Shown: positions 18,143-40,190 of the stretch, in pieces
Layout: each line of letters begins with the position of its first letter
How positions within the stretch are numbered: position 1 is the stretch's first letter
Assembly: GCF_058153355.1 (NCBI RefSeq)
Contig: NZ_CM177019.1
Reading direction: 5' to 3' (one strand)
DNA length: 64,000 nt
Translations under genes and position numbers: made by a program
The notes under the pieces: generated by a model
Database searches by the model: none
Told to the model about the DNA's origin: nothing
Seen by the model: the letters and a program-made list of their open reading frames with translations, nothing else

Positions 18143-20279
18143 GATGCTGGCTTATCAGATTCAGTACGTCGCGCACGCTGTCGAGCATAGGCGTACCTGG
18201 ACCATAAATCGCCGCCACGCCGCGCTCCTGCAGGAAGGCGTAATCCTGCGGTGGAATGACGCCACCCGCGACCACGAAAATATCTTCGCGATTCCATTTC
18301 TTCAGCGCTTCGACCAGTTCCGGGATCAGCGTTTTATGACCGGCAGCCAGTGAAGATGCGCCCACTATGTGAACGTCGTTTTCTACTGCCAGGCGGGCGA
18401 TCTCTTCAGGTGTAGAGAACATCGGGCTTAAATCTACGTCGAAACCGAGATCGGAATAGGCGCTGGCGATCACTTTCGCGCCGCGATCGTGCCCATCCTG
18501 GCCCATTTTGGCGATCAGAATGCGCGGGCGACGACCATTGTCGGCAAGGAACTGCTCCGTTTGCGCAACAATGGCATCGAACTCGGAGGCCGATTTCTCA
18601 GACTGATGATAGCTTTGCGCAATCACGCCGGTAACACACTGGCTTGGCACCAGATAACGGTCGAAAGCGGCTTCCAGCGCATCGGAAATTTCACCCAGGG
18701 TGGCGCGAACGCGAGCGGCATTAACAGCGGCAGCCAGCAGGTTTTCGTTGTGCTGTGCGGCGTGAGTCAGGGCGTTCAACGCGGCGGTTACGGCGGCATC
18801 ATCACGGGTGGCGCGAATGCGTTCCAGCGAAGCAATTTGCTCGTTACGCACCATCACGTTGTCGATCTCAAGTACATCGGTTTCGTCTTCGTGATCCAGT
18901 TTGTACTTGTTGACACCAACGATGACACGCTTGCCCTGGTCGATCAACGACTGTTCGCGCGCGGAGGCCTCTTCGATCATTCGTTTTGGCAGACCTGCTT
19001 CGATCGCTTTCGCCATGCCACCGGCTTCGTCGATCTGTTGGATAATGGCTCTGGCTTGTTTGACGATTTGATCGGTCAGCGATTCAACGTAATAGGATCC
19101 GGCCAGTGGATCGACGGTGCGGCAGAGTTCTGATTCTTCCTGAATGATGATCTGGGTATTGCGGGCAATGCGTGCTGAGAAATCGGTTGGCAAACCCAGC
19201 GCTTCATCAAAGGCGTTGGTATGCAATGACTGAGTACCGCCCAGCGTTGCAGCCAGTGCTTCAATGGTGGTGCGGATAACGTTGTTATACGGATCCTGTT
19301 CAGTCAGGCTCCAGCCTGAGGTCTGGCAGTGGGTACGCAGCGCCAGTGATTTCGGATCCTGTGCGCCAAATCCACTGACCGCTTCGCTCCATAAATAACG
19401 TGCCGCACGCAACATGGCGACGTTCATAAACAGATCCATGCCAATGCCGAAGAAAAACGACAGGCGAGGAGCAAAGTCATCAATTTTCAGCCCAGCGGAG
19501 ATTGCTGCTTTGATGTACTCAATCCCATCAGCGAGCGTAAATGCTACCTGCTGCACGCAGTTGGCACCCGCTTCACCCATATGGTAACCGCTGATACTGA
19601 TGGTATTAAATCGCGGCATGTTGCCGGAACACCAGGCGATGATGTCTGCGATAATACGCATTGACGGTTTTGGCGGGTAAATATAGGTGTTGCGGCAAAG
19701 ATACTCTTTGAGGATATCGTTCTGAATGGTGCCTGTCAGTTTATCGGGTGTAACACCTTGCTCTTCTGCGGCGACAATATAAAACGCCAGTACTGGTAGT
19801 ACTGCGCCATTCATGGTCATCGAAACCGACATTTTATCCAGCGGGATCTGGTCGAACAGGACTTTCATATCTTCCACGGTGTCGATGGCGACGCCCGCTT
19901 TGCCGACGTCACCCGCAACGCGCGGGTTATCGGAGTCGTAGCCACGGTGGGTGGCAAGGTCAAACGCAACGGAAAGACCTTTTTGCCCGGCGGCCAGGTT
20001 ACGGCGATAAAAAGCGTTAGACTCTTTTGCTGTCGAGAAACCGGCATACTGACGGATAGTCCACGGTTGGGCGGTATACATAGTGGCACGCGGGCCACGA
20101 ACGTAGGGTGGCAAACCAGGAAGGGTACCGGTCACTTCCAGATTATCGAGATCGGCTTCAGTATACAGCGGCTTGATGGCGATCCCTTCTGCGGTTTGCT
20201 GAACCAGCGAGTCGACAGTTTTCTCCCGACGGCTCAATTCCTTGTTGGCAAGCTGTTGCCACTCCTGCACGTTAGACAT
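18135..20279 (-). CDS. scpA: methylmalonyl-CoA mutase (sleeping beauty mutase)
   Basis: Start at 20279 ([14 protein letters not shown]); 714 aa; B12-dependent mutase sequence. Confidence 0.92.
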
Positions 20280-20482
20280 TATTTGCTCCATAAAACGCAA
20301 TCAAAATGAGGGTATTTGCGCTTACGGTGAGCTTTTTACGTGGGTTTGTCGCCAGCAAAAAAAATGCATTCAGACGTCGTTTTTTGCCGCCTGAGATTTG
20401 TCTATTTTGTGATGTGATTCAAGGAATACAAAAAGAACTGGAGGTGATGCCTGGTATGTATTACCAGGCATTATTTGATGGA

Positions 20483-21376
20483 TTATTCCTGACGAAGAAC
20501 TTTGTGACCATAATCGAGCAACGCATCAGTGACTTTACGCATCATGCGGCTTTCAGGAGCAAAGCGGTGCCAGTAGAGCATCCGGCGTTGAAATAGCCCT
20601 GGCGTTAAGTCAATCAGTTCGCCGCTGGCCAGTTCTTTCTCGATTTGCAGATGTGGGATCATACAGCAGGTGGTCCCCTGACGAGCAAGTTGCACGAACG
20701 CTTCTGAAGAATTAACGATATGGCAGGGTACGCTGCCTGGAGGCAGATCAAAGTTTTGCTGCAAAAAGGCCTGGTGCATATCATCAAGATGGTCAAAGGC
20801 GACCACTGGCGCTTTCAGTAATGCCGAACGCGTTACGCCGTTAGGGAAATATTTTTCGGCGAACGGTTTTGAGCTGACGAACAGATAGTCGAGCGCACCG
20901 AGCTTATCGACAAGACAACTCGGTAGCGCCTGATGTTGAATACTCACCGCGCCGACCACTTCGCCGCGACGCAGACGTTCCTGAGTGCGGGTTTCATCTT
21001 CTACCTGCAAGTTGAGGCGGATAGGCGAATCAGCTAACACAGGAGCCAGCGCCGGAAGCAACCACGTCGCCAGACTGTCAGCGTTGACCGCCAGTGAAAG
21101 CAGCAGCGGAGTTGAACCGGTTTGTTCATCGCCCAGCCACTCTTCTTCCAGTAACTCCACCTGGCGTAGCAGTGCCAGCAGTTTTTGCCCTTGTTCCGTC
21201 GGGCGCGGCGGTACGGTACGCACCAACAGCGGCTGCCCGAACATATTTTCCAGTTGCTTAATGCGCTGTGAGACGGCTGATTGTGTAATGCACAGCTTTT
21301 GTGCCGCGCGCTCAAATCCTCGTTCACGTATCACCGCATCCAGTGCCTGTAATGTTCTGTAGTCCGGGCGTTTCAT
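20483..21376 (-). CDS. argP: LysR-family regulator ArgP (IciA)
   Basis: Start at 21376 ([15 protein letters not shown]); 297 aa. Confidence 0.9.
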
Positions 21377-21516
21377 TGCTGTTGTCTGCTCCTGGTAAAT
21401 GCTTTTTCCTGCACTATGACACAATTTTGCGTCAGGTTGCATATACCGAAGCCGTCGGCGGGTACATTTGTATCAGTGGTTAAACACGCAGCTTAAAAGA
21501 TCAGGGATTTGCGCTA

Positions 21517-21747
21517 TTGCATTTCGCTCAGCGAGTTCGCGCCCTGGTTGTGTTGAATGGCGTGGCGTTATTGCCTCAATTTGCCTGTAAACAGGGGCTT
21601 GCCAACGGTGAACTGGTGCGCCTGTTCGCACCGTGGAGCGGCATACCCAGACCGTTGTATGCTTTATTTGCCGGGCGAAAGGGGATGCCCGCCATTGCGC
21701 GATATTTTATGGATGAGTTAACCACGCGGCTTGCCAACGGGGTCTGA
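21517..21747 (+). pseudogene. yqfE: LysR-family regulator C-terminal remnant
   Basis: 76-aa ORF resembling only the C-terminal effector-domain end of a LysR regulator; no N-terminal helix-turn-helix domain present. Confidence 0.55.
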
Positions 21748-21762
21748 ATCGCTTTTTTTGTA

Positions 21763-21887
21763 TATACTCGTCATACTTCAAGTTGCATGTGCTGCGTCTG
21801 CGTTCGCTCACCCCAGTCACTTACTTCTGTAAGCTCCTGGGGATTCACTCTCTTGTCGCCTCCCTGCAACTCGAATTATTTAGAGTA
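21763..21887. repeat. ERIC element, copy 2 (inverted relative to copy 1)
   Basis: Reverse complement matches 8453-8577 with about 3 mismatches. Confidence 0.85.
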
Positions 21888-21925
21888 TAATGCGAGTGAA
21901 ATTTCATACCACAGGCGAAACGATC

Positions 21926-22585
21926 ATGACGCAGGATGAATTGAAAAAAGCAGTAGGATGGGCGGCACTTCAGTATGTTCAGCCCGGCACCATTGTTGGT
22001 GTAGGTACAGGTTCCACCGCCGCACACTTTATTGACGCGCTCGGCACGATGAAAGGCCAGATTGAAGGGGCCGTTTCCAGTTCGGATGCGTCCACTGAAA
22101 AACTGAAAAGCCTCGGCATTCACGTTTTTGATCTCAACGAAGTCGACAGCCTTGGCATCTACGTCGACGGTGCAGATGAAATCAACGGCCACATGCAGAT
22201 GATCAAAGGCGGCGGCGCGGCGCTGACCCGTGAAAAAATCATTGCTTCGGTTGCGGAAAAATTTATCTGTATTGCAGACGCTTCTAAGCAGGTTGATATT
22301 CTGGGCAAATTCCCGCTGCCAGTAGAAGTTATCCCGATGGCACGTAGTGCAGTGGCGCGCCAGCTGGTGAAACTGGGCGGTCGTCCGGAATACCGCCAGG
22401 GCGTGGTGACCGATAACGGCAACGTGATCCTCGACGTCCACGGCATGGAAATCCTTGACCCAATAGCGATGGAAAACGCCATAAATGCGATTCCGGGCGT
22501 GGTGACTGTTGGCTTATTTGCTAACCGTGGCGCGGACGTTGCGCTGATTGGCACACCTGACGGTGTCAAAACCATTGTGAAATGA
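21926..22585 (+). CDS. rpiA: ribose-5-phosphate isomerase A
   Basis: Start at 21926 ([15 protein letters not shown]); 219 aa. Confidence 0.93.
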
Positions 22586-22840
22586 TCTGACGGGGGAATC
22601 TCCCCCGTTAAAAAAATTCTCTTCGTTAAATTTGGTGACATGTGTCACGTTTTTACCTGGCTATTGTCGATTGCTCTAAATAAATCCTCTAATCCAGCAT
22701 ATTCATCCAAGAAAAACCTTTGCGTGATATTTCCTCAACATCGCGACGCAAACGTTCATATTGCCGCAATATTATTTTTTGATATGTTGAAAGGCGGATG
22801 CAAATCCGCACACAACATTTCAAAAGACAGGATTGGGTAA

Positions 22841-24073
22841 ATGGCAAAGGTATCGCTGGAGAAAGACAAGATTAAGTTTCTGCTGGTAGAAGGCGTGCAC
22901 CAAAAGGCGCTGGAAAGCCTTCGTGCAGCGGGTTACACCAACATCGAATTTCACAAAGGCGCGCTGGATGATGAACAATTAAAAGAATCCATCCGCGATG
23001 CCCACTTCATCGGCCTGCGATCCCGTACCCATCTGACTGAAGACGTGATCAACGCCGCAGAAAAACTGGTCGCTATTGGCTGTTTCTGTATCGGAACAAA
23101 CCAGGTTGATCTGGATGCAGCTGCAAAACGCGGGATCCCGGTATTTAACGCACCGTTCTCTAATACGCGCTCTGTTGCGGAGCTGGTAATTGGCGAACTT
23201 CTGCTGCTATTGCGCGGCGTACCGGAAGCCAACGCTAAAGCGCACCGTGGTGTCTGGAACAAGCTGGCAGCTGGCTCTTTTGAAGCGCGCGGCAAAAAGC
23301 TGGGTATCATCGGCTATGGTCATATTGGTACACAGTTGGGCATTCTGGCTGAATCGCTGGGAATGTATGTTTACTTTTATGATATTGAAAACAAACTGCC
23401 GCTGGGCAACGCCACTCAGGTACAGCATCTTTCTGATCTGCTGAATATGAGCGATGTGGTGAGTTTGCATGTGCCAGAGAATCCGTCCACCAAAAATATG
23501 ATGGGCGCGAAAGAGATTTCACTAATGAAGCCCGGCTCGCTGCTGATTAATGCCTCGCGCGGAACGGTGGTGGATATTCCGGCGCTGTGTGACGCGCTGG
23601 CGAGCAAACACCTGGCAGGTGCGGCAATCGATGTCTTCCCGACGGAACCGGCGACCAACAGCGATCCATTTACCTCTCCGCTGTGTGAATTCGACAACGT
23701 CCTTCTGACGCCACATATTGGCGGTTCGACTCAGGAAGCGCAGGAGAATATCGGCCTGGAAGTTGCGGGTAAATTGATCAAGTATTCTGACAATGGCTCA
23801 ACGCTCTCTGCGGTGAACTTCCCGGAAGTCTCGCTGCCACTGCACGGTGGGCGTCGTCTGATGCACATCCACGAAAACCGTCCGGGCGTGCTAACTGCGC
23901 TCAACAAAATTTTTGCCGAGCAGGGCGTCAACATCGCCGCGCAATATCTGCAAACTTCCGCCCAGATGGGTTATGTAGTTATTGATATTGAAGCCGACGA
24001 AGACGTTGCCGAAAAAGCGCTGCAGGCAATGAAAGCTATTCCGGGTACCATTCGCGCCCGTCTGCTGTACTAA
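22841..24073 (+). CDS. serA: D-3-phosphoglycerate dehydrogenase
   Basis: 410-aa ORF MAKVSLEKDKIKFLLVEGVHQ...; canonical SerA. Confidence 0.95.
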   Translation: MAKVSLEKDKIKFLLVEGVHQKALESLRAAGYTNIEFHKGALDDEQLKESIRDAHFIGLRSRTHLTEDVINAAEKLVAIGCFCIGTNQVDLDAAAKRGIPVFNAPFSNTRSVAELVIGELLLLLRGVPEANAKAHRGVWNKLAAGSFEARGKKLGIIGYGHIGTQLGILAESLGMYVYFYDIENKLPLGNATQVQHLSDLLNMSDVVSLHVPENPSTKNMMGAKEISLMKPGSLLINASRGTVVDIPALCDALASKHLAGAAIDVFPTEPATNSDPFTSPLCEFDNVLLTPHIGGSTQEAQENIGLEVAGKLIKYSDNGSTLSAVNFPEVSLPLHGGRRLMHIHENRPGVLTALNKIFAEQGVNIAAQYLQTSAQMGYVVIDIEADEDVAEKALQAMKAIPGTIRARLLY

Positions 24074-24093
24074 ATCCCCTTCTCTGAAAATCA

Positions 24094-24125
24094 ACGGGCA
24101 GGTCACTGACTTGCCCGTTTTTTTA
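24094..24125 (+). terminator. serA intrinsic terminator
   Basis: Hairpin ACGGGCA...TGCCCGT followed by TTTTTTT. Confidence 0.75.
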
Positions 24126-24229
24126 TCCCTTCTCCACACCGTTGCCGCATTGCGCATTCTACTTTGCGAGTCTGCTCCAGAAAATAAATCAAAGTCAGAT
24201 CAATGCGTTGTGTTTGTTTAATGAGGATT

Positions 24230-24375
24230 TAGGATGGCGAGGCAGCATAGGGCTACAACGGTAAAGCCCTCACCGAAGCGAGGGCTTGAAGGAGAAGGGT
24301 TATGATGCGACTCGTCATCATACTGATTGTACTGTTACTCATAAGTTTCCCAGCTTATTAACAGTCAGTCACAGG
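24230..24375 (-). ncRNA. sibC: SibC antisense sRNA (antitoxin to ibsC); ends approximate
   Basis: Inferred from the known Sib/Ibs arrangement in which the sRNA fully overlaps the toxin ORF on the opposite strand; boundaries not determinable from sequence alone. Confidence 0.45.
24302..24361 (+). CDS. ibsC: type I toxin IbsC (19-aa hydrophobic peptide)
   Basis: GAAGGAGAAGGG Shine-Dalgarno then ATGATGCGACTCGTCATCATACTGATTGTACTGTTACTCATAAGTTTCCCAGCTTATTAA = MMRLVIILIVLLLISFPAY; too short for the ORF track. Confidence 0.8.
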   Translation: MMRLVIILIVLLLISFPAY

Positions 24376-24461
24376 GGAGGAGCAATCCTCCCTTACCCTT
24401 ACTCACTAAATTAGGTCAAAGAATCAACGATGTCAATCAGGGCGATGCAGGTGTGTCGCCC

Positions 24462-25010
24462 TCACCACTCCCAGACTTTCGACGGCGTAACTACTGCAGG
24501 AAGTGGAATATCCCACTCTTCAACGGGGAGTTTTTCTACCAACTGACAATCATGCGCATAACCCACCGGTTGCATTTGATAGCGCTGCCAGTTTTGTAAG
24601 GTCCGATCATAAAAACCACCGCCCATTCCCAGGCGCTGACCGTACTCATCAAAGGCGACCAGCGGTGTGATCAACACGTCTAATCGGGAAAGGGGTAGCA
24701 CGTCACGCACATCCAGTTTTGGCTCATGGATCTTCAACCTGTTCATCACCAGTTCGCTTTGCGGATGGTAATTCAGGAACAGCAAATTACCGGCACTAAA
24801 GGGATGCAAAACTGGAAGATATACGCGCTTACCGGCGCGCCAGAGTTGTTCTATGAGTGGCTGGGTGTCGAGTTCGCCATCAAAAGAGAGGAATACAGCG
24901 ACCGTATGCGCCATCACCACCGGGGGATAAGTCATCATCCGGGTAGCAGCTTGTTGACCCATTTCTTGCTGTTGTTTCGGCGTTAACGCACGACGACGTT
25001 GCCGAATCAT
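24462..25010 (-). CDS. ygfA: 5-formyltetrahydrofolate cyclo-ligase
   Basis: Start at 25010 (MIRQRRRALTP); 182 aa; downstream of ssrS in the same transcript. Confidence 0.85.
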   Translation of the reverse strand: MIRQRRRALTPKQQQEMGQQAATRMMTYPPVVMAHTVAVFLSFDGELDTQPLIEQLWRAGKRVYLPVLHPFSAGNLLFLNYHPQSELVMNRLKIHEPKLDVRDVLPLSRLDVLITPLVAFDEYGQRLGMGGGFYDRTLQNWQRYQMQPVGYAHDCQLVEKLPVEEWDIPLPAVVTPSKVWEW

Positions 25011-25082
25011 TTTGCGGATTTCTTGTCGATATAATGTCAGTGGGATTTCTGGTAGTTGCGTCATGGCTGGTGCCAGATAAGA

Positions 25083-25268
25083 AGGGAATCTCCGAGATGC
25101 CGCCGCAGGCTGTAACCCTTGAACCCTTGGTTCAAGGTGAATGTGTCGTCACAGTTTTAAGGCTTCTCGGACGGACCGAGCATGCTCACCAACCGCGGAG
25201 CGCCACATTCTTGTGGTATGAAATATCGGCTCAGGGGACTGGCCCGCTTGCGAACATCTCAGAGAAAT
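25083..25268 (-). ncRNA. ssrS: 6S RNA
   Basis: Reverse complement reads ATTTCTCTGAGATGTTCGCAAGCGGGCCAGTCCCCTGAGCCGATATTTCATACCACAAGAATGTGGCGCTCCGCGG...GGAGATTCCCT, the 6S RNA sequence. Confidence 0.93.
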
Positions 25269-25309
25269 TTTGTCTTCACGGTTACTCTACCACAGTAAAC
25301 CGAAAAGTG

Positions 25310-25705
<396 letters not shown>

Positions 25706-25806
25706 CTATAGCTACCCTGATGAGAAGAGACAAGCCCTTTTCTGGTCCACCAGGGCCCAAAGTGGTAGCATATCATGAATATTCCTCCCTTTGACGACGA
25801 ATGCTT

Positions 25807-26385
25807 ATGTCTATACAGAACGAAATGCCTGGTTACAACGAAATGAACCAGTATCTGAACCAACAAGGGACGGGTCTGACCCCTGCTGAGATGCATGGTT
25901 TAATCAGTGGGATGATATGTGGTGGTAACGATGACAGCTCATGGCTGCCACTGCTTCACGACCTGACGAACGAAGGCATGGCTTTCGGTCATGAGCTGGC
26001 ACAGGCATTGCGCAAAATGCACTCTGCTACCAGCGATGCCCTGCAGGATGACGGCTTCCTTTTTCAGCTTTATCTGCCTGATGGCGATGATGTCAGTGTT
26101 TTCGATCGTGCTGATGCGCTGGCAGGTTGGGTCAATCACTTCCTGCTTGGTCTTGGCGTTACGCAACCGAAGCTGGACAAAGTGACCGGCGAAACCGGTG
26201 AAGCCATCGACGATCTGCGTAACATCGCGCAGCTGGGCTACGACGAAGACGAAGATCAGGAAGAGCTGGAAATGTCGCTTGAAGAGATCATCGAGTACGT
26301 CCGTGTTGCCGCGCTGTTATGCCACGACACCTTTACTCATCCGCAACCGACCGCGCCAGAAGTACAAAAACCGACTCTACACTAA
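25807..26385 (+). CDS. ygfB: UPF0149 family protein
   Basis: About 192 aa; first gene of the ygfB-pepP-ubiH-ubiI cluster. Confidence 0.8.
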
Positions 26386-26410
26386 AAACAAAAAACGTAA
26401 GGAGAGTGTT

Positions 26411-27736
26411 ATGAGTGAGATATCCCGGCAAGAATTTCAGCGTCGCCGTCAGGCCCTGGTAGAGCAAATGCAACCCGGCAGCGCCGCGCTGATTTTCGCG
26501 GCACCAGAAGTGACCCGTAGCGCCGACAGCGAATACCCCTATCGTCAGAACAGTGACTTCTGGTACTTCACCGGCTTTAACGAACCGGAAGCGGTGCTGG
26601 TACTGATTAAAAGTGATGACACTCATAACCACAGCGTTTTGTTTAACCGCGTGCGCGACTTGACGGCGGAGATCTGGTTTGGCCGTCGTTTAGGTCAGGA
26701 TGCCGCGCCAGAGAAACTGGGCGTTGACCGCGCACTGGCGTTCAGTGAAATCAATCAGCAACTTTATCAACTGCTTAATGGTCTGGATGTGGTTTACCAC
26801 GCTCAGGGCGAATATGCCTATGCTGATGAAATCGTGAACAGCGCGCTGGAAAAGCTGCGTAAAGGCTCGCGACAAAATCTCACCGCGCCAGCAACGATGA
26901 TCGACTGGCGTCCTGGTGTTCATGAAATGCGCCTGTTCAAATCGCCGGAAGAGATTGCCGTACTTCGCCGCGCGGGTGAAATCACTGCCCTGGCGCATAC
27001 CCGGGCGATGGAAAAATGCCGTCCGGGGATGTTCGAGTACCATCTGGAAGGCGAAATTCACCACGAATTTAACCGCCACGGTGCGCGTTACCCTTCCTAT
27101 AACACCATTGTTGGCAGCGGTGAAAACGGCTGCATTCTGCATTACACCGAAAACGAGTGTGAAATGCGCGACGGCGACCTGGTGCTGATTGATGCTGGTT
27201 GTGAATACAAAGGTTACGCTGGCGATATTACCCGCACCTTCCCGGTTAACGGTAAATTCACTCAGGCTCAGCGTGAAATCTACGACATTGTGCTGGAGTC
27301 TCTTGAAACCAGCTTGCGCCTGTATCGTCCGGGAACGTCCATTCAGGAAGTCACCGGTGAAGTGGTGCGCATCATGGTTAGCGGCCTGGTAAAACTCGGC
27401 ATCCTGAAAGGTGATGTTGATGAACTGATCGCTCAGAACGCCCATCGTCCTTTCTTTATGCATGGCCTTAGCCACTGGTTAGGTCTGGATGTCCATGATG
27501 TTGGTATTTATGGTCAGGATCGCTCGCGCATTCTGGAACCGGGCATGGTACTGACCGTAGAGCCGGGGCTGTACATTGCGCCGGATGCGGATGTACCAGA
27601 ACAATATCGCGGTATCGGCATTCGTATCGAAGACGACATTGTGATTACCGAAACCGGCAATGAAAACCTCACTGCCAGCGTAGTGAAAAAGCCGGAAGAA
27701 ATTGAAGCGTTGATGGCTGCTGCGAGAAAGCAATGA
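26411..27736 (+). CDS. pepP: Xaa-Pro aminopeptidase
   Basis: Start at 26411 (MSEISRQEFQRRRQ); 441 aa; the long ORF-track start is in the ygfB frame tail. Confidence 0.92.
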   Translation: MSEISRQEFQRRRQALVEQMQPGSAALIFAAPEVTRSADSEYPYRQNSDFWYFTGFNEPEAVLVLIKSDDTHNHSVLFNRVRDLTAEIWFGRRLGQDAAPEKLGVDRALAFSEINQQLYQLLNGLDVVYHAQGEYAYADEIVNSALEKLRKGSRQNLTAPATMIDWRPGVHEMRLFKSPEEIAVLRRAGEITALAHTRAMEKCRPGMFEYHLEGEIHHEFNRHGARYPSYNTIVGSGENGCILHYTENECEMRDGDLVLIDAGCEYKGYAGDITRTFPVNGKFTQAQREIYDIVLESLETSLRLYRPGTSIQEVTGEVVRIMVSGLVKLGILKGDVDELIAQNAHRPFFMHGLSHWLGLDVHDVGIYGQDRSRILEPGMVLTVEPGLYIAPDADVPEQYRGIGIRIEDDIVITETGNENLTASVVKKPEEIEALMAAARKQ

Positions 27737-28911
27737 GCGTAATCATCGTCGGTGGCGGCATGGCGGGCGCGACGCTGGCGCTGGCTATTTCCCGGTTAAG
27801 TCACGGGGCGCTGCCGGTACATTTGATTGAAGCGACTGCGCCAGAGTCACATGCTCATCCGGGCTTTGATGGACGAGCTATTGCGCTGGCGGCGGGTACT
27901 TGTCAGCAACTGGCGCGCATCGGCGTCTGGCAATCTCTGGCTGATTGCGCAACCGCCATCACCAGCGTGCATGTCAGCGATCGTGGTCATGCCGGATTCG
28001 TCACCCTCGCCGCAGAAGATTACCAACTGGCGGCGCTGGGGCAGGTTGTCGAATTGCATAATGTCGGGCAACGGCTGTTTGCATTGCTGCGCAAAGCACC
28101 TGGCGTAACGCTGCATTGTCCGGATCGCGTGGCTAACGTTGCCCGTGCTCAGAGTCACGTTGAAGTGACGCTGGAGAGTGGCAAGACGTTGACGGGGCGT
28201 GTGCTGGTCGCTGCTGATGGCACCCATTCCGCGTTAGCCACCGCGTGCGGTGTTGACTGGCAGCAGGAGCCTTACGAACAACTGGCCGTGATTGCGAACG
28301 TTGCGACTTCCGTTGCGCACGAAGGCCGGGCGTTTGAGCGTTTCACACAATATGGCCCGTTGGCGATGTTGCCGATGTCTGACGGACGCTGTTCGCTGGT
28401 CTGGTGCCATCCACTGGAACGGCGCGAAGAGGTGCTGTCGTGGAGCGACGAGACGTTTTGCCGTGAACTCCAGTCGGCCTTTGGCTGGCGACTTGGGAAA
28501 ATTACCCACGCTGGTAAACGCAGTGCTTACCCGCTGGCGTTAACCCGCGCCGCCAGACCTGTTACCCATCGTACCGTGCTGGTGGGCAATGCGGCGCAAA
28601 CCCTGCACCCGATTGCCGGGCAAGGATTTAACCTCGGTATGCGTGATGTGATGAGCCTTGCGGAAACGCTGACTCAGGCTCAGGCACGTGAAGATGACAT
28701 CGGTGATTACGGCGTATTGTGCCGTTATCAGCAGCGTCGGCAGAGCGATCGCGAAGCAACCATCGGTGTCACGGACAGCCTTGTACATCTTTTTGCTAAC
28801 CGTTGGGCACCGTTGGTTGTCGGGCGCAACCTCGGGCTGATGACGATGGAATTATTCACCCCAGCACGCGATGTGCTGGCGCAGCGCACCCTCGGTTGGG
28901 TGGCGCGTTAA
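27733..28911 (+). CDS. ubiH: 2-octaprenyl-6-methoxyphenol hydroxylase (FAD monooxygenase)
   Basis: 392-aa ORF with N-terminal GGGMAG FAD fingerprint; overlaps pepP stop by 4 bp. Confidence 0.9.
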   Translation: MSVIIVGGGMAGATLALAISRLSHGALPVHLIEATAPESHAHPGFDGRAIALAAGTCQQLARIGVWQSLADCATAITSVHVSDRGHAGFVTLAAEDYQLAALGQVVELHNVGQRLFALLRKAPGVTLHCPDRVANVARAQSHVEVTLESGKTLTGRVLVAADGTHSALATACGVDWQQEPYEQLAVIANVATSVAHEGRAFERFTQYGPLAMLPMSDGRCSLVWCHPLERREEVLSWSDETFCRELQSAFGWRLGKITHAGKRSAYPLALTRAARPVTHRTVLVGNAAQTLHPIAGQGFNLGMRDVMSLAETLTQAQAREDDIGDYGVLCRYQQRRQSDREATIGVTDSLVHLFANRWAPLVVGRNLGLMTMELFTPARDVLAQRTLGWVAR

Positions 28912-28933
28912 AGGCGGCTTTAAGGAATAAACA

Positions 28934-30136
28934 ATGCAAAGTGTTGATGTAGCCATTGTTGGCGGCGGCATGGTGGGGCTGGCGGTTGCCTGCGGCTTGC
29001 AGGGCAGCGGCTTACGCGTTGCCGTACTGGAGCAGCGCGTACCGGAACCTCTGGCGGCGGATGCACCACCACAACTGCGCGTTTCGGCTATCAATGCCGC
29101 CAGCGAAAAATTACTCACCCGTCTTGGCGTCTGGCAGGACATTCTCTCTCGTAGGGCCAGCTGTTATCACGGTATGGAAGTGTGGGACAAAGACAGCTTT
29201 GGTCACATTTCGTTTGACGATCAAAGCATGGGCTATAGCCATCTTGGGCATATCGTTGAAAATTCAGTCATTCACTACGCGCTGTGGAACAAAGCACAGC
29301 AGTCCTCAGATATCAGCCTGCTAGCCCCTGCAGAATTACAGCAAGTCGCCTGGGGAGAGAACGAAACCTTCCTGACGCTGAAAGACGGCAGCATGTTAAC
29401 GGCGCGTCTGGTAATTGGCGCAGACGGCGCTAATTCCTGGTTGCGCAACAAAGCCGATATTCCGCTGACTTTCTGGGATTATCTGCATCACGCGCTGGTG
29501 GCGACCATTCGCACGGAAGAACCGCATGATGCGGTGGCGCGACAGGTTTTCCATGGCGAAGGCATTCTGGCCTTTTTGCCGCTTAGCGATCCGCATCTTT
29601 GCTCAATTGTCTGGTCACTGTCGCCAGAGGAAGCACAGCGGATGCAGCAGGCAGGTGAAGACGAATTTAATCGCGAGTTAAATATCGCTTTTGATAATCG
29701 CCTGGGCTTATGCAAGGTTGAGAGTGAACGCCTGGTGTTCCCGCTGACTGGGCGTTATGCGCGCCAGTTTGCCGCGCACCGTCTGGCGCTGGTGGGCGAC
29801 GCCGCACATACCATTCACCCGTTGGCGGGGCAGGGGGTGAATCTCGGCTTTATGGATGCTGCAGAGCTGATTGCTGAACTGAAACGGTTGCATCGTCAGG
29901 GTAAAGACATCGGGCAGTACATTTACCTGCGTCGCTATGAGCGTAGCCGCAAGCACAGTGCGGCGCTGATGCTGGCAGGTATGCAGGGATTCCGCGATCT
30001 GTTTTCCGGGGCTAATCCGGCGAAAAAACTGCTGCGTGATATTGGCCTGAAACTGGCCGACACGCTTCCTGGCGTTAAACCACAACTTATCCGTCAGGCA
30101 ATGGGATTAAACGATTTGCCTGAATGGCTGCGCTAA
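28934..30136 (+). CDS. ubiI: 2-octaprenylphenol hydroxylase (FAD monooxygenase)
   Basis: 400-aa ORF, paralogue of ubiH (VisC). Confidence 0.9.
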   Translation: MQSVDVAIVGGGMVGLAVACGLQGSGLRVAVLEQRVPEPLAADAPPQLRVSAINAASEKLLTRLGVWQDILSRRASCYHGMEVWDKDSFGHISFDDQSMGYSHLGHIVENSVIHYALWNKAQQSSDISLLAPAELQQVAWGENETFLTLKDGSMLTARLVIGADGANSWLRNKADIPLTFWDYLHHALVATIRTEEPHDAVARQVFHGEGILAFLPLSDPHLCSIVWSLSPEEAQRMQQAGEDEFNRELNIAFDNRLGLCKVESERLVFPLTGRYARQFAAHRLALVGDAAHTIHPLAGQGVNLGFMDAAELIAELKRLHRQGKDIGQYIYLRRYERSRKHSAALMLAGMQGFRDLFSGANPAKKLLRDIGLKLADTLPGVKPQLIRQAMGLNDLPEWLR

Positions 30137-35104: not shown

Positions 35105-35307
35105 AAAGGCGCTTCGGCGCCTTTGACACTGATGTCAAACTCAACATTGCCTGATACACCTCGTTTATCAGGCCTACATAGTCTGTGCAATGTATTGAAT
35201 TTGCACGATTTTGTAGGCTGGATAAGGCGTTCACGCCGCATCCGGCATAATAAAAGCACTTTGTCATCAATAATTTGAAAGGCGCTTCGGCGCCTTTATT
35301 TTTTTAG
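35105..35307. repeat. BIME/REP cluster flanked by two copies of a terminator hairpin
   Basis: AAAGGCGCTTCGGCGCCTTT at 35105-35124 and again at 35277-35296, the second followed by a T-run; REP-like palindromes between them. Confidence 0.7.

Positions 35308-38806: not shown

Positions 38807-40190
<1,384 letters not shown>

What the first reader, a model, noticed from the sequence alone, without database searches (positions are those of the whole stretch)
25083..25268. 6S RNA (ssrS) co-transcribed with ygfA
Regulatory RNA that sequesters sigma-70 RNA polymerase. A long antisense ORF-track entry (25034..25360 plus) overlaps it and should not be taken as coding.
Basis: established knowledge. Interest (0 to 1): 0.25.

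Follow-up and report, generated by a model that had tools for sequence, protein, structure and literature searches.

The report
Ordinary E. coli 6S RNA gene
This is the standard Escherichia coli 6S RNA gene (ssrS), a well-studied small RNA that mimics an open promoter to tie up the cell's main RNA polymerase in stationary phase; nothing about it here is unusual.

Summary
The finding is correct and ordinary. Rfam's 6S model (RF00013) matches window 25085..25268 on the minus strand over its full length, at 138.1 bits against a gathering score of 46.4. The sequence matches E. coli K-12 ssrS at 183 of 184 bases. It sits in the canonical zapA -> ssrS -> fau(ygfA) arrangement, which RefSeq annotates identically and which 5425 of 5426 complete E. 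coli genomes carry.

Sixty non-redundant homologues (one of them, L080, later shown to be a chance pattern match), fetched from other gammaproteobacteria and aligned without reference to structure, support the rod-and-bubble fold: 82% of cells pair against 38-49% for slid controls, and 36 of 51 pairs show compensatory changes. The pRNA template start (U44) and both promoter-like elements (P1, and P2 inside zapA) are present.

The plus-strand ORF 25034..25360 has no Pfam match, is not annotated in the two RefSeq records examined, and is not conserved as an open frame.

- The gene is on the minus strand.
- The 3' end is 25085 or 25086, not 25083.
- Co-transcription with ygfA is limited by published Rho-dependent termination inside ygfA.

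The only peculiarity is a rare C118U allele (30 of 5426 genomes) that turns one G-C pair into a G-U wobble.

The parts
25085..25268 (-). Mature 6S RNA (ssrS), 184 nt. The 5' end is A at 25268. The K-12 annotation would end it at 25086 (183 nt).
   Evidence: RF00013 at 138.1 bits over the full model. 183 of 184 bases identical to K-12 b2911 and 184 of 184 to the PGAP-annotated ssrS of strain MFDS1022581.
25087..25103 (-). 3' half of the closing stem (6S nt 166-182). It pairs with nt 2-19 (window 25250..25267).
   Evidence: Rfam consensus structure projected on the sequence. This is helix 1: 13 of 17 pairs show compensatory changes and 83.7% of cells pair.
25250..25267 (-). 5' half of the closing stem (6S nt 2-19).
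25211..25227 (-). 5' strand of the central bubble (6S nt 42-58, GAUAUUUCAUACCACAA). It contains U44.
   Evidence: Unpaired in the Rfam consensus, in the centroid fold and in the RNAalifold consensus.
25126..25138 (-). 3' strand of the central bubble (6S nt 131-143, ACCUUGAACCAAG). It can form a small hairpin.
   Evidence: Unpaired in the Rfam consensus. A small hairpin is predicted here.
25225..25244 (-). Template for the product RNA (6S nt 44 down to 25). Its complement reads 5'-AUCGGCUCAGGGGACUGGCC.
   Evidence: Sequence computed. U44 as the start site of the de novo transcripts comes from PMC1874619. This stretch is identical to K-12.
25139..25210 (-). Internal stem and terminal hairpin (6S nt 59-130).
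   Evidence: Helices 3-5: 22 of 24 pairs show compensatory changes and 83-99% of cells pair.
25151..25151 (-). U118, the single difference from K-12 (which has C118). It turns the G73-C118 pair into a G73-U118 wobble.
   Evidence: Alignment. The allele is found in 30 of 5426 complete E. coli genomes. The same pair is G-C, A-U or G-U in other enterics, and the change costs about 1.9 kcal/mol.
25284..25313 (-). Proximal promoter-like site (P1): ATGACA, 18-nt spacer with TG, TAGAGT. It predicts a start near 25277, 9 nt before the mature 5' end.
   Evidence: Promoter scan. Identical to K-12. The -10 hexamer is conserved in Escherichia, Citrobacter and Enterobacter. Two tandem promoters are described in PMC12152304 and PMC10406553. 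The -9 position is recalled from Kim & Lee 2004, which I could not read here.
25269..25277 (-). Short 5' leader of the P1 transcript (AGACAAA-rich). It is removed by RNase E/G.
   Evidence: Inferred from the P1 geometry. Processing by RNase E/G comes from the literature.
25500..25528 (-). Distal promoter-like site (P2) inside zapA codons 38-47: TTGCAA, 17-nt spacer, TAGAGT. It predicts a start at A 25492, which is -224.
   Evidence: Read from the sequence. It matches 8 of 12 consensus positions, below the scanner's cut-off. Both hexamers are unchanged in the 11 aligned sequences that cover this stretch, from E. coli to Yersinia. Third-codon-position conservation in zapA peaks here, 0.859 against about 0.6-0.7 elsewhere.
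25310..25639 (-). zapA (cell division protein ZapA), the upstream gene. It carries P2.
   Evidence: Pfam PF05164, E 8.7e-21. RefSeq annotation.
24462..25064 (-). fau / ygfA (5-formyltetrahydrofolate cyclo-ligase), the downstream gene of the transcription unit. The K-12 annotation uses a later ATG at 25010.
   Evidence: Pfam PF01812, E 2.1e-47, with the profile starting at residue 13 of the long form. Annotation.
25005..25084 (-). C-rich, G-poor 80 nt immediately after 6S (23 C, 11 G). This is a candidate Rho-utilisation region.
   Evidence: Base composition. Rho-dependent termination within ygfA is reported in the literature. Assigning this stretch as the rut site is my inference.
25034..25360 (+). 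Antisense 108-aa ORF. It is not a gene.
   Evidence: No Pfam hit. Not annotated in the two RefSeq records examined. Not conserved as an open frame.

Best explanation
Window 25085..25268 (minus strand) is the chromosomal ssrS gene of an Escherichia coli strain. It encodes 6S RNA.

How it is made: transcription starts at two tandem promoters, P1 just upstream and P2 inside zapA. RNase E/G trims the 5' end and exonucleases trim the 3' end. Most transcripts end by Rho-dependent termination in the early part of fau/ygfA, and some read through to express fau.

How it works: the 184-nt RNA folds into a long, imperfect duplex with a large central bubble that resembles DNA in an open promoter complex. 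It occupies the active-site channel of the sigma-70 holoenzyme and so withholds that enzyme from sigma-70 promoters in stationary phase. When NTP levels rise on outgrowth, the polymerase uses the RNA as a template starting at U44 and makes a 14-24 nt product RNA. The resulting 6S:pRNA duplex rearranges the bubble and releases the polymerase.

Shown here: family membership, fold, covariation, gene context, promoter-like elements, and the presence of the template sequence. Inferred from E. coli literature on an essentially identical sequence: polymerase binding, pRNA synthesis, processing and termination.
For: - Rfam RF00013 gives a full-length match at 138.1 bits against a gathering score of 46.4.
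- The sequence matches K-12 ssrS at 183 of 184 bases and a PGAP-annotated ssrS at 184 of 184.
- The locus is present once per genome in 5425 of 5426 complete E. coli genomes, under the annotations zapA | ssrS | fau.
- The fold has z = -5.55, with nt 42-58 unpaired in the centroid structure.
- On a structure-blind MAFFT alignment of 60 pattern-retrieved sequences under 93% identical (L080 is a chance match, L098 a partial one), RNAalifold recovers 42 pairs, 35 of them with compensatory changes.
- For the Rfam structure on the same alignment, 82.1% of cells pair against 38-49% when partners are slid. 36 of 51 pairs show compensatory change. The covariation score is 0.415 against 0.10-0.16.
- Thirteen of 15 distant loci are independently confirmed as full-length 6S.
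- Synteny holds widely: zapA lies upstream in 102 of 113 loci and fau downstream in 97 of 105.
- ssrS is far more conserved than its coding neighbours. Against Citrobacter it is 97.8% identical, compared with 89.9% for zapA and 75.5% for fau.
- A P1-like promoter is found by the scan. The P2-like element is conserved, with a peak of synonymous-site conservation.
- Literature support: U44 as the pRNA start (PMC1874619); sigma-70 holoenzyme sequestration and release by pRNA (PMC3299989; PMC10578484); co-transcription with ygfA (PMC2848244).
Against: Nothing substantive.

- No expression or binding data exist for this particular strain.
- The helix flanking the bubble (helix 2) shows little covariation here, at 71.6% paired. 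Its bases were fixed by the search pattern used to fetch the homologues, and MAFFT misaligns its 3' strand in Pseudomonas-type sequences, so this is uninformative rather than contrary.
- The exact start sites (-9 and -224) rest on my recollection of Kim & Lee 2004, which could not be opened.
Confidence: 0.98

Rival explanations
1. The plus-strand ORF 25034..25360 (108 aa) is a real protein-coding gene, and the RNA-family match is incidental.
For: The ORF is open for 327 nt with an ATG start.
Against: - It has no Pfam family.
- No CDS is annotated there in K-12 or in the PGAP-annotated relative.
- It would overlap, in antisense, the start of fau, all of ssrS and the end of zapA.
- In enterobacterial relatives that are 85-88% identical, every antisense frame across 6S has stops. 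Overall only 25 of 60 homologues have a stop-free antisense frame, similar to the sense strand at 20 of 60.
- The conservation pattern is that of paired RNA, with compensatory changes, and not of codons.
Confidence: 0.005
2. The element is only a structured 5' leader (cis-regulatory region) of the fau/ygfA mRNA, and not a stable trans-acting RNA.
For: It lies 20 nt upstream of the fau ATG on the same strand with no intrinsic terminator between them. The ssrS-fau linkage is conserved in 97 of 105 loci.
Against: - For an essentially identical sequence (183 of 184 bases), the literature documents a processed, abundant 184-nt RNA bound to RNA polymerase.
- 6S occurs without fau downstream in the Moraxellaceae loci (L064, L093, L103, L116, L120).
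- The Rfam family spans bacteria that have other gene contexts.
Confidence: 0.01
3. The C118U change makes this copy a weakened or non-functional variant of 6S RNA.
For: The allele is rare, at 30 of 5426 genomes, and costs about 1.9 kcal/mol in the internal stem.
Against: - The change keeps the pair, turning G-C into a G-U wobble.
- The same position is G-U in two other genera among the fetched loci (L020, L021) and A-U in Citrobacter and Enterobacter, so the pair is a normal covarying site.
- It lies in the internal stem, away from the bubble and from U44.
- It is the only ssrS copy in these genomes.
Confidence: 0.02

Closest known systems
Escherichia coli K-12 ssrS (b2911), 6S RNA; Rfam RF00013
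   Same: 183 of 184 bases are identical. The neighbours are the same (ygfB <> zapA -> ssrS -> fau -> sibC/ibsC, then serA). The 62 nt upstream, including P1, are identical, and so is the 20-nt spacer to the fau ATG.
   Different: There is one substitution, C118U (window 25151), giving a G-U wobble in the internal stem. The allele is present in only 30 of 5426 complete E. coli genomes.
6S RNAs of other Gammaproteobacteria (Pseudomonas, Alcanivorax, Porticoccaceae, Orbaceae and others)
   Same: The architecture is the same (closing stem, central bubble, internal stem, terminal hairpin). The CUGAGCCGA and CACCU.GAA...GGUUCAA blocks are shared; they were fixed by the search pattern used to fetch these loci, so their constancy in this set is by construction. 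The zapA-6S-fau order is the same in most loci.
   Different: Sequence identity is only 43-64%, with many compensatory pair changes, and lengths run 177-186 nt. The Moraxellaceae loci lack detectable zapA and fau neighbours.
Bacillus subtilis 6S-1 / 6S-2 RNAs and actinobacterial Ms1
   Same: 6S-1 and 6S-2 use the same principle: an RNA mimic of an open promoter that binds the housekeeping holoenzyme. 6S-1 is also released by pRNA synthesis (PMC3299989; PMC10578484).
   Different: Their sequences, genomic context and processing enzymes (RNase J1) differ. 6S-2 does not direct efficient pRNA synthesis under physiological conditions. Ms1 binds core RNAP and not the holoenzyme (PMC9130861 abstract). 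These were not compared by computation here.

Membership tests
6S / SsrS RNA (Rfam RF00013) | Covariance-model score at or above the curated gathering score, over the full model. | tested here: met
   138.1 bits against 46.4, model positions 1-187 of 187, E 8.7e-29. It remains one of only five gathering-level hits in the whole 64-kb window.
6S / SsrS RNA (Rfam RF00013) | A ~180-190 nt, largely double-stranded rod: closing stem, large central bubble, internal stem and terminal hairpin. | tested here: met
   The MFE and centroid folds leave nt 42-58 unpaired between two long stems, z = -5.55. The Rfam structure projected on the sequence gives a 17-nt 5' side and a 13-nt 3' side for the bubble.
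6S / SsrS RNA (Rfam RF00013) | Helices supported by compensatory base changes among homologues. | tested here: met
   On a structure-blind alignment of 60 sequences, 36 of 51 pairs show compensatory changes and 82.1% of cells pair against 38-49% for slid controls. No shuffle out of 500 reached the observed value on four of the five measures; 2 of 500 did on the fifth. The bubble-flanking helix could not be assessed because its bases were fixed by the retrieval pattern.
6S / SsrS RNA (Rfam RF00013) | Conserved 5' bubble sequence with a pRNA initiation site (U44 in E. coli) and a downstream template. | tested here: met
   Nt 25-44 are identical to K-12, and their complement reads AUCGGCUCAGGGGACUGGCC. 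U44 as the start site comes from PMC1874619. Only presence of the sequence was tested, not activity.
6S / SsrS RNA (Rfam RF00013) | [quoted passage not shown] | not testable with these tools
   Taken from the literature on the K-12 RNA, which differs by one wobble-preserving base.
Gammaproteobacterial ssrS-ygfA transcription unit | ssrS immediately upstream of, and on the same strand as, a 5-formyltetrahydrofolate cyclo-ligase gene, with zapA upstream. | tested here: met
   In the window, zapA is 25639..25310, ssrS 25268..25085 and fau 25064..24462, all on the minus strand. RefSeq annotation agrees. The order is conserved in 102 of 113 loci upstream and 97 of 105 loci downstream.
Gammaproteobacterial ssrS-ygfA transcription unit | No intrinsic terminator between ssrS and fau; transcription actually continues into fau. 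| tested here: inconclusive
   No terminator-like site lies in the 20-nt gap, and a C-rich, G-poor stretch follows 6S. Actual read-through versus Rho termination is known only from the literature.
Gammaproteobacterial ssrS-ygfA transcription unit | Tandem promoters P1 (proximal) and P2 (distal). | tested here: met
   P1 matches 9 of 12 consensus positions with an extended -10 TG. P2 (TTGCAA-17-TAGAGT) matches 8 of 12, is conserved across genera and is under synonymous-site constraint. Only sequence was tested. Promoter activity comes from the literature.

The most novel reading that the evidence does not exclude
The most novel reading not excluded is that the rare G73-U118 wobble allele (30 of 5426 complete E. 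coli genomes) measurably alters 6S RNA stability or RNA polymerase affinity in this lineage. The alternative is that it is a neutral intermediate in a G-C to A-U compensatory switch.
Probability: 0.05. Interest if true: 0.15.

Novelty: already known. Interest (0 to 1): 0.04.

Why it matters
It matters only for correct annotation. The region should be labelled ssrS (6S RNA) on the minus strand, and the 108-aa plus-strand ORF should be discarded. 6S RNA is a textbook global regulator of sigma-70 transcription, and this copy adds no new biology. Two small by-products are of mild interest to specialists but are not surprising: a lineage-specific G-U wobble at a covarying pair, and a clear footprint of synonymous-site constraint over the P2 promoter embedded in zapA.

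Tried and rejected
(1) I tried to open the primary papers for the promoter start sites, Rho termination and comparative analysis: Chae 2011 (PMC3012964), Kim & Lee 2004 (PMC534622), Lee 2013 (PMC3887979) and Barrick 2005 (PMC1370762). None is held. The -9 and -224 start positions are therefore recalled knowledge. The sequence geometry is consistent with both values: counting 7 nt downstream of each -10 hexamer gives 25277 and 25492.

(2) PMC10406553 gives precursor lengths of 194 and 404 nt. These do not add up exactly to -9 and -224 plus 183 nt. I left this unresolved.

(3) One pattern hit, L080 (a Gemmatimonadetes MAG), is a chance match with no Rfam hit. L098 is only a partial 6S. Both stayed in alignment A2, where they slightly lower the paired percentages.

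(4) Covariation in the helix next to the bubble could not be evaluated. The retrieval pattern fixed its bases, and MAFFT shifts its 3' strand in Pseudomonas-type sequences.

(5) The plus strand also folds well (z = -3.76), as expected for the complement of a structured RNA. It gives no gathering-level Rfam 6S hit, so plus-strand orientation is rejected.

(6) The terminator-like site at 24635..24620 lies inside the fau coding sequence. The number of such sites in the region (3) is close to that expected from shuffles (1.7), so I treated it as chance.

Full report
**Observation.** A scan of window 20000..30000, and then of the whole window, against Rfam 15 gives a full-length match to RF00013 (6S / SsrS RNA). 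It lies at 25085..25268 on the minus strand: 138.1 bits against a gathering score of 46.4, E 8.7e-29, model positions 1-187 of 187. The plus-strand ORF 25034..25360 (108 aa) exists as stated.

**Identity and context.**
- The 1361-bp zapA-ssrS-fau stretch is found once per genome in 5425 of 5426 complete E. coli genomes, always under the features zapA, ssrS and fau. The best match is 99.9% identical (strain MFDS1022581).
- RefSeq annotation of that strain and of K-12 MG1655 gives the same order as the window: ygfB (divergent), zapA, ssrS, fau, sibC/ibsC, serA.
- In the window, on the minus strand, zapA is 25639..25310, ssrS is 25268..25085 and fau is 25064..24462.
- Against K-12, ssrS differs at one base out of 184. 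zapA is 99.1% identical and fau 97.0%. The upstream 41-nt spacer and the downstream 20-nt spacer are identical.
- The window is therefore E. coli (98.2% identical to K-12 and 94.9% to E. albertii over this stretch).
- ssrS is much more conserved than its coding neighbours. Against Citrobacter werkmanii it is 97.8% identical, compared with 89.9% for zapA and 75.5% for fau.

**Structure.** The sense strand folds to -78.6 kcal/mol with z = -5.55, and 0 of 200 shuffles fold as well. The centroid structure has a long closing stem, an unpaired nt 42-58, an internal stem and a terminal hairpin. Projecting the Rfam consensus onto the sequence gives 51 pairs. The central bubble consists of nt 42-58 (GAUAUUUCAUACCACAA) and nt 131-143 (ACCUUGAACCAAG). 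The complement also folds (z = -3.76), as any complement of a structured RNA does, but it gives no gathering-level 6S match.

**Evidence from other species.**
- One DNA-pattern scan of the species-representative genome collection, using two conserved blocks that flank the bubble, returned 120 loci from Enterobacterales, Pseudomonadales, Alcanivoracaceae, Porticoccaceae, Orbaceae, Moraxellaceae and others.
- I reduced these to 60 sequences under 93% identical (39-89% identical to the window RNA) and aligned them with MAFFT, which does not use structure.
- RNAalifold recovers the closing stem, internal stem and terminal hairpin. It predicts 42 pairs, 35 of them with compensatory changes, and leaves the central region open apart from a small 3'-side hairpin.
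- Counting the Rfam structure on the same alignment: 82.1% of cells pair, against 38.0-49.0% when partners are slid by 1-3 columns. 36 of 51 pairs have changes on both sides. The covariation score is 0.415 against 0.105-0.160. No shuffle out of 500 reaches the observed value on four of the five measures; 2 of 500 do on the fifth.
- The helix next to the bubble is uninformative here, because its bases were fixed by the retrieval pattern.
- Rfam independently confirms 13 of 15 of the most distant loci as full-length 6S. L080 is a chance pattern match and L098 is a partial match.

**Synteny.** With every locus oriented on 6S, a ZapA homologue lies upstream on the same strand within 400 nt in 102 of 113 loci that have enough flank. 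A Fau homologue lies downstream on the same strand within 400 nt in 97 of 105. The exceptions are the Moraxellaceae loci and the two doubtful hits. This reproduces the published statement that the ssrS-ygfA arrangement is conserved among enterobacteria and gammaproteobacteria (PMC2848244).

**Expression signals.**
- The promoter scan finds ATGACA-18-TAGAGT, with a TG extension, at 25313..25284 on the minus strand. A start 7 nt further on would be at 25277, 9 nt before the mature 5' end. This fits the proximal promoter P1.
- By eye, TTGCAA (25528..25523), a 17-nt spacer and TAGAGT (25505..25500) sit inside zapA and would start transcription at A 25492, which is -224. This matches 8 of 12 consensus positions, below the scanner's threshold.
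- Both P2 hexamers are unchanged in the 11 aligned sequences that cover this stretch, from E. coli to Pantoea, Serratia, Rahnella and Yersinia.
- Across 24 non-redundant enterobacterial zapA genes, third-codon-position conservation peaks at codons 37-49 (0.859). Elsewhere it is about 0.6-0.7, including in stretches whose amino-acid conservation is equal or higher. This is the footprint expected of a promoter embedded in a coding sequence.
- The numerical positions -9 and -224 are my recollection of Kim & Lee 2004, which I could not open.
- No terminator-like site lies between ssrS and fau. The first 80 nt after 6S are C-rich and G-poor, with 23 C and 11 G. This is consistent with the Rho-dependent termination within ygfA reported by Chae et al. 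2011, as cited in PMC3299989. Calling this stretch the rut site is inference.

**Mechanism.** All of this is taken from work on the K-12 RNA, which differs by one wobble-preserving base. The rod with its open bubble resembles promoter DNA in the open complex and binds the sigma-70 holoenzyme, which keeps the holoenzyme away from DNA promoters in stationary phase (PMC3299989; PMC10406553). On nutrient upshift the enzyme transcribes the RNA itself from U44 (PMC1874619). Product RNAs of 13 nt or more form a duplex that rearranges 6S and releases the polymerase (PMC10578484). The template is present here unchanged: the complement of nt 44-25 reads AUCGGCUCAGGGGACUGGCC, at window 25225..25244.

**The antisense ORF.**
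- It has no Pfam family at E <= 0.01 and is not annotated in either RefSeq record examined.
- It would overlap, in antisense, the fau start, all of ssrS and the zapA end.
- Among the 60 homologues only 25 keep any stop-free antisense frame across 6S, about the same as the non-coding sense strand (20 of 60). Several enterobacterial relatives at 85-88% identity have none.
- It is an accident of a G+C-balanced structured RNA gene.

**The one peculiarity.**
- The single difference from K-12 is C118U (window 25151), which changes G73-C118 to G73-U118.
- A 31-mer centred on it cannot seed a megablast hit if the central base differs. It finds 30 of 5426 genomes, all within annotated ssrS. The allele is therefore rare and lineage-restricted. 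This count is a lower bound.
- Among enterobacterial homologues the same pair is G-C (12), A-U (14) or G-U (4). The wobble costs about 1.9 kcal/mol.
- This is a normal intermediate at a covarying pair, far from the bubble. I see no reason to expect a functional effect.

**Verdict.** There are three small corrections:
- The strand is minus.
- The 3' end is 25085 or 25086.
- Co-transcription with ygfA is tempered by Rho-dependent termination.

The feature is already known in every respect, and interest is very low.

Noticed in passing
window 24286..24436 (- strand RNA) and 24302..24361 (+ strand ORF): This is a SibC/IbsC type I toxin-antitoxin pair, directly downstream of fau. Rfam SIB_RNA matches at 140.5 bits (gathering score 56). 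The opposite-strand 19-aa ORF translates to MMRLVIILIVLLLISFPAY, a hydrophobic Ibs-type toxin. RefSeq annotates it as sibC/ibsC.
   Followed up: partly
window 25500..25528 (- strand), inside zapA codons 38-47: The distal ssrS promoter-like element (TTGCAA-17-TAGAGT) is unchanged in the 11 aligned enterobacterial sequences that cover it. It coincides with the peak of third-codon-position conservation in zapA (0.859 against about 0.6-0.7), including a conserved rare AGA arginine codon that forms part of the -10 hexamer. This is a clear case of a coding sequence constrained by an embedded promoter.
   Followed up: yes
window 25151: A rare ssrS allele, C118U, giving a G-U wobble. It is present in only 30 of 5426 complete E. 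coli genomes. The same pair is G-C, A-U or G-U in other enterics.
   Followed up: yes
window 25010 vs 25064 (- strand): There are two candidate fau/ygfA start codons. PGAP uses the ATG at 25064 (200 aa, 20 nt after 6S). The K-12 annotation uses the ATG at 25010 (182 aa). The Pfam 5-FTHF cyclo-ligase profile begins at residue 13 of the long form, so the short form would cut off the first few profile positions. Neither ATG has an obvious Shine-Dalgarno sequence.
   Followed up: partly
window 40030..40107 (both strands): An Rfam naRNA4 (RF02564) match, 81.3 bits on the minus strand and 59.7 on the plus strand. This is the signature of a REP-type palindromic repeat element.
   Followed up: no
window 35170..35212 (- strand): An Rfam ES036 (RF02751) sRNA match at 43.2 bits (gathering score 37.6). 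I did not examine it further.
   Followed up: no
L064, L093, L103, L116, L120 (Moraxellaceae loci): L064 and L093 were confirmed as full-length 6S by Rfam at about 110 bits; the other three were not scanned. All five loci lack detectable zapA and fau neighbours, unlike almost all other gammaproteobacterial loci fetched. The ssrS-fau linkage has therefore been lost or rearranged in that family.
   Followed up: partly
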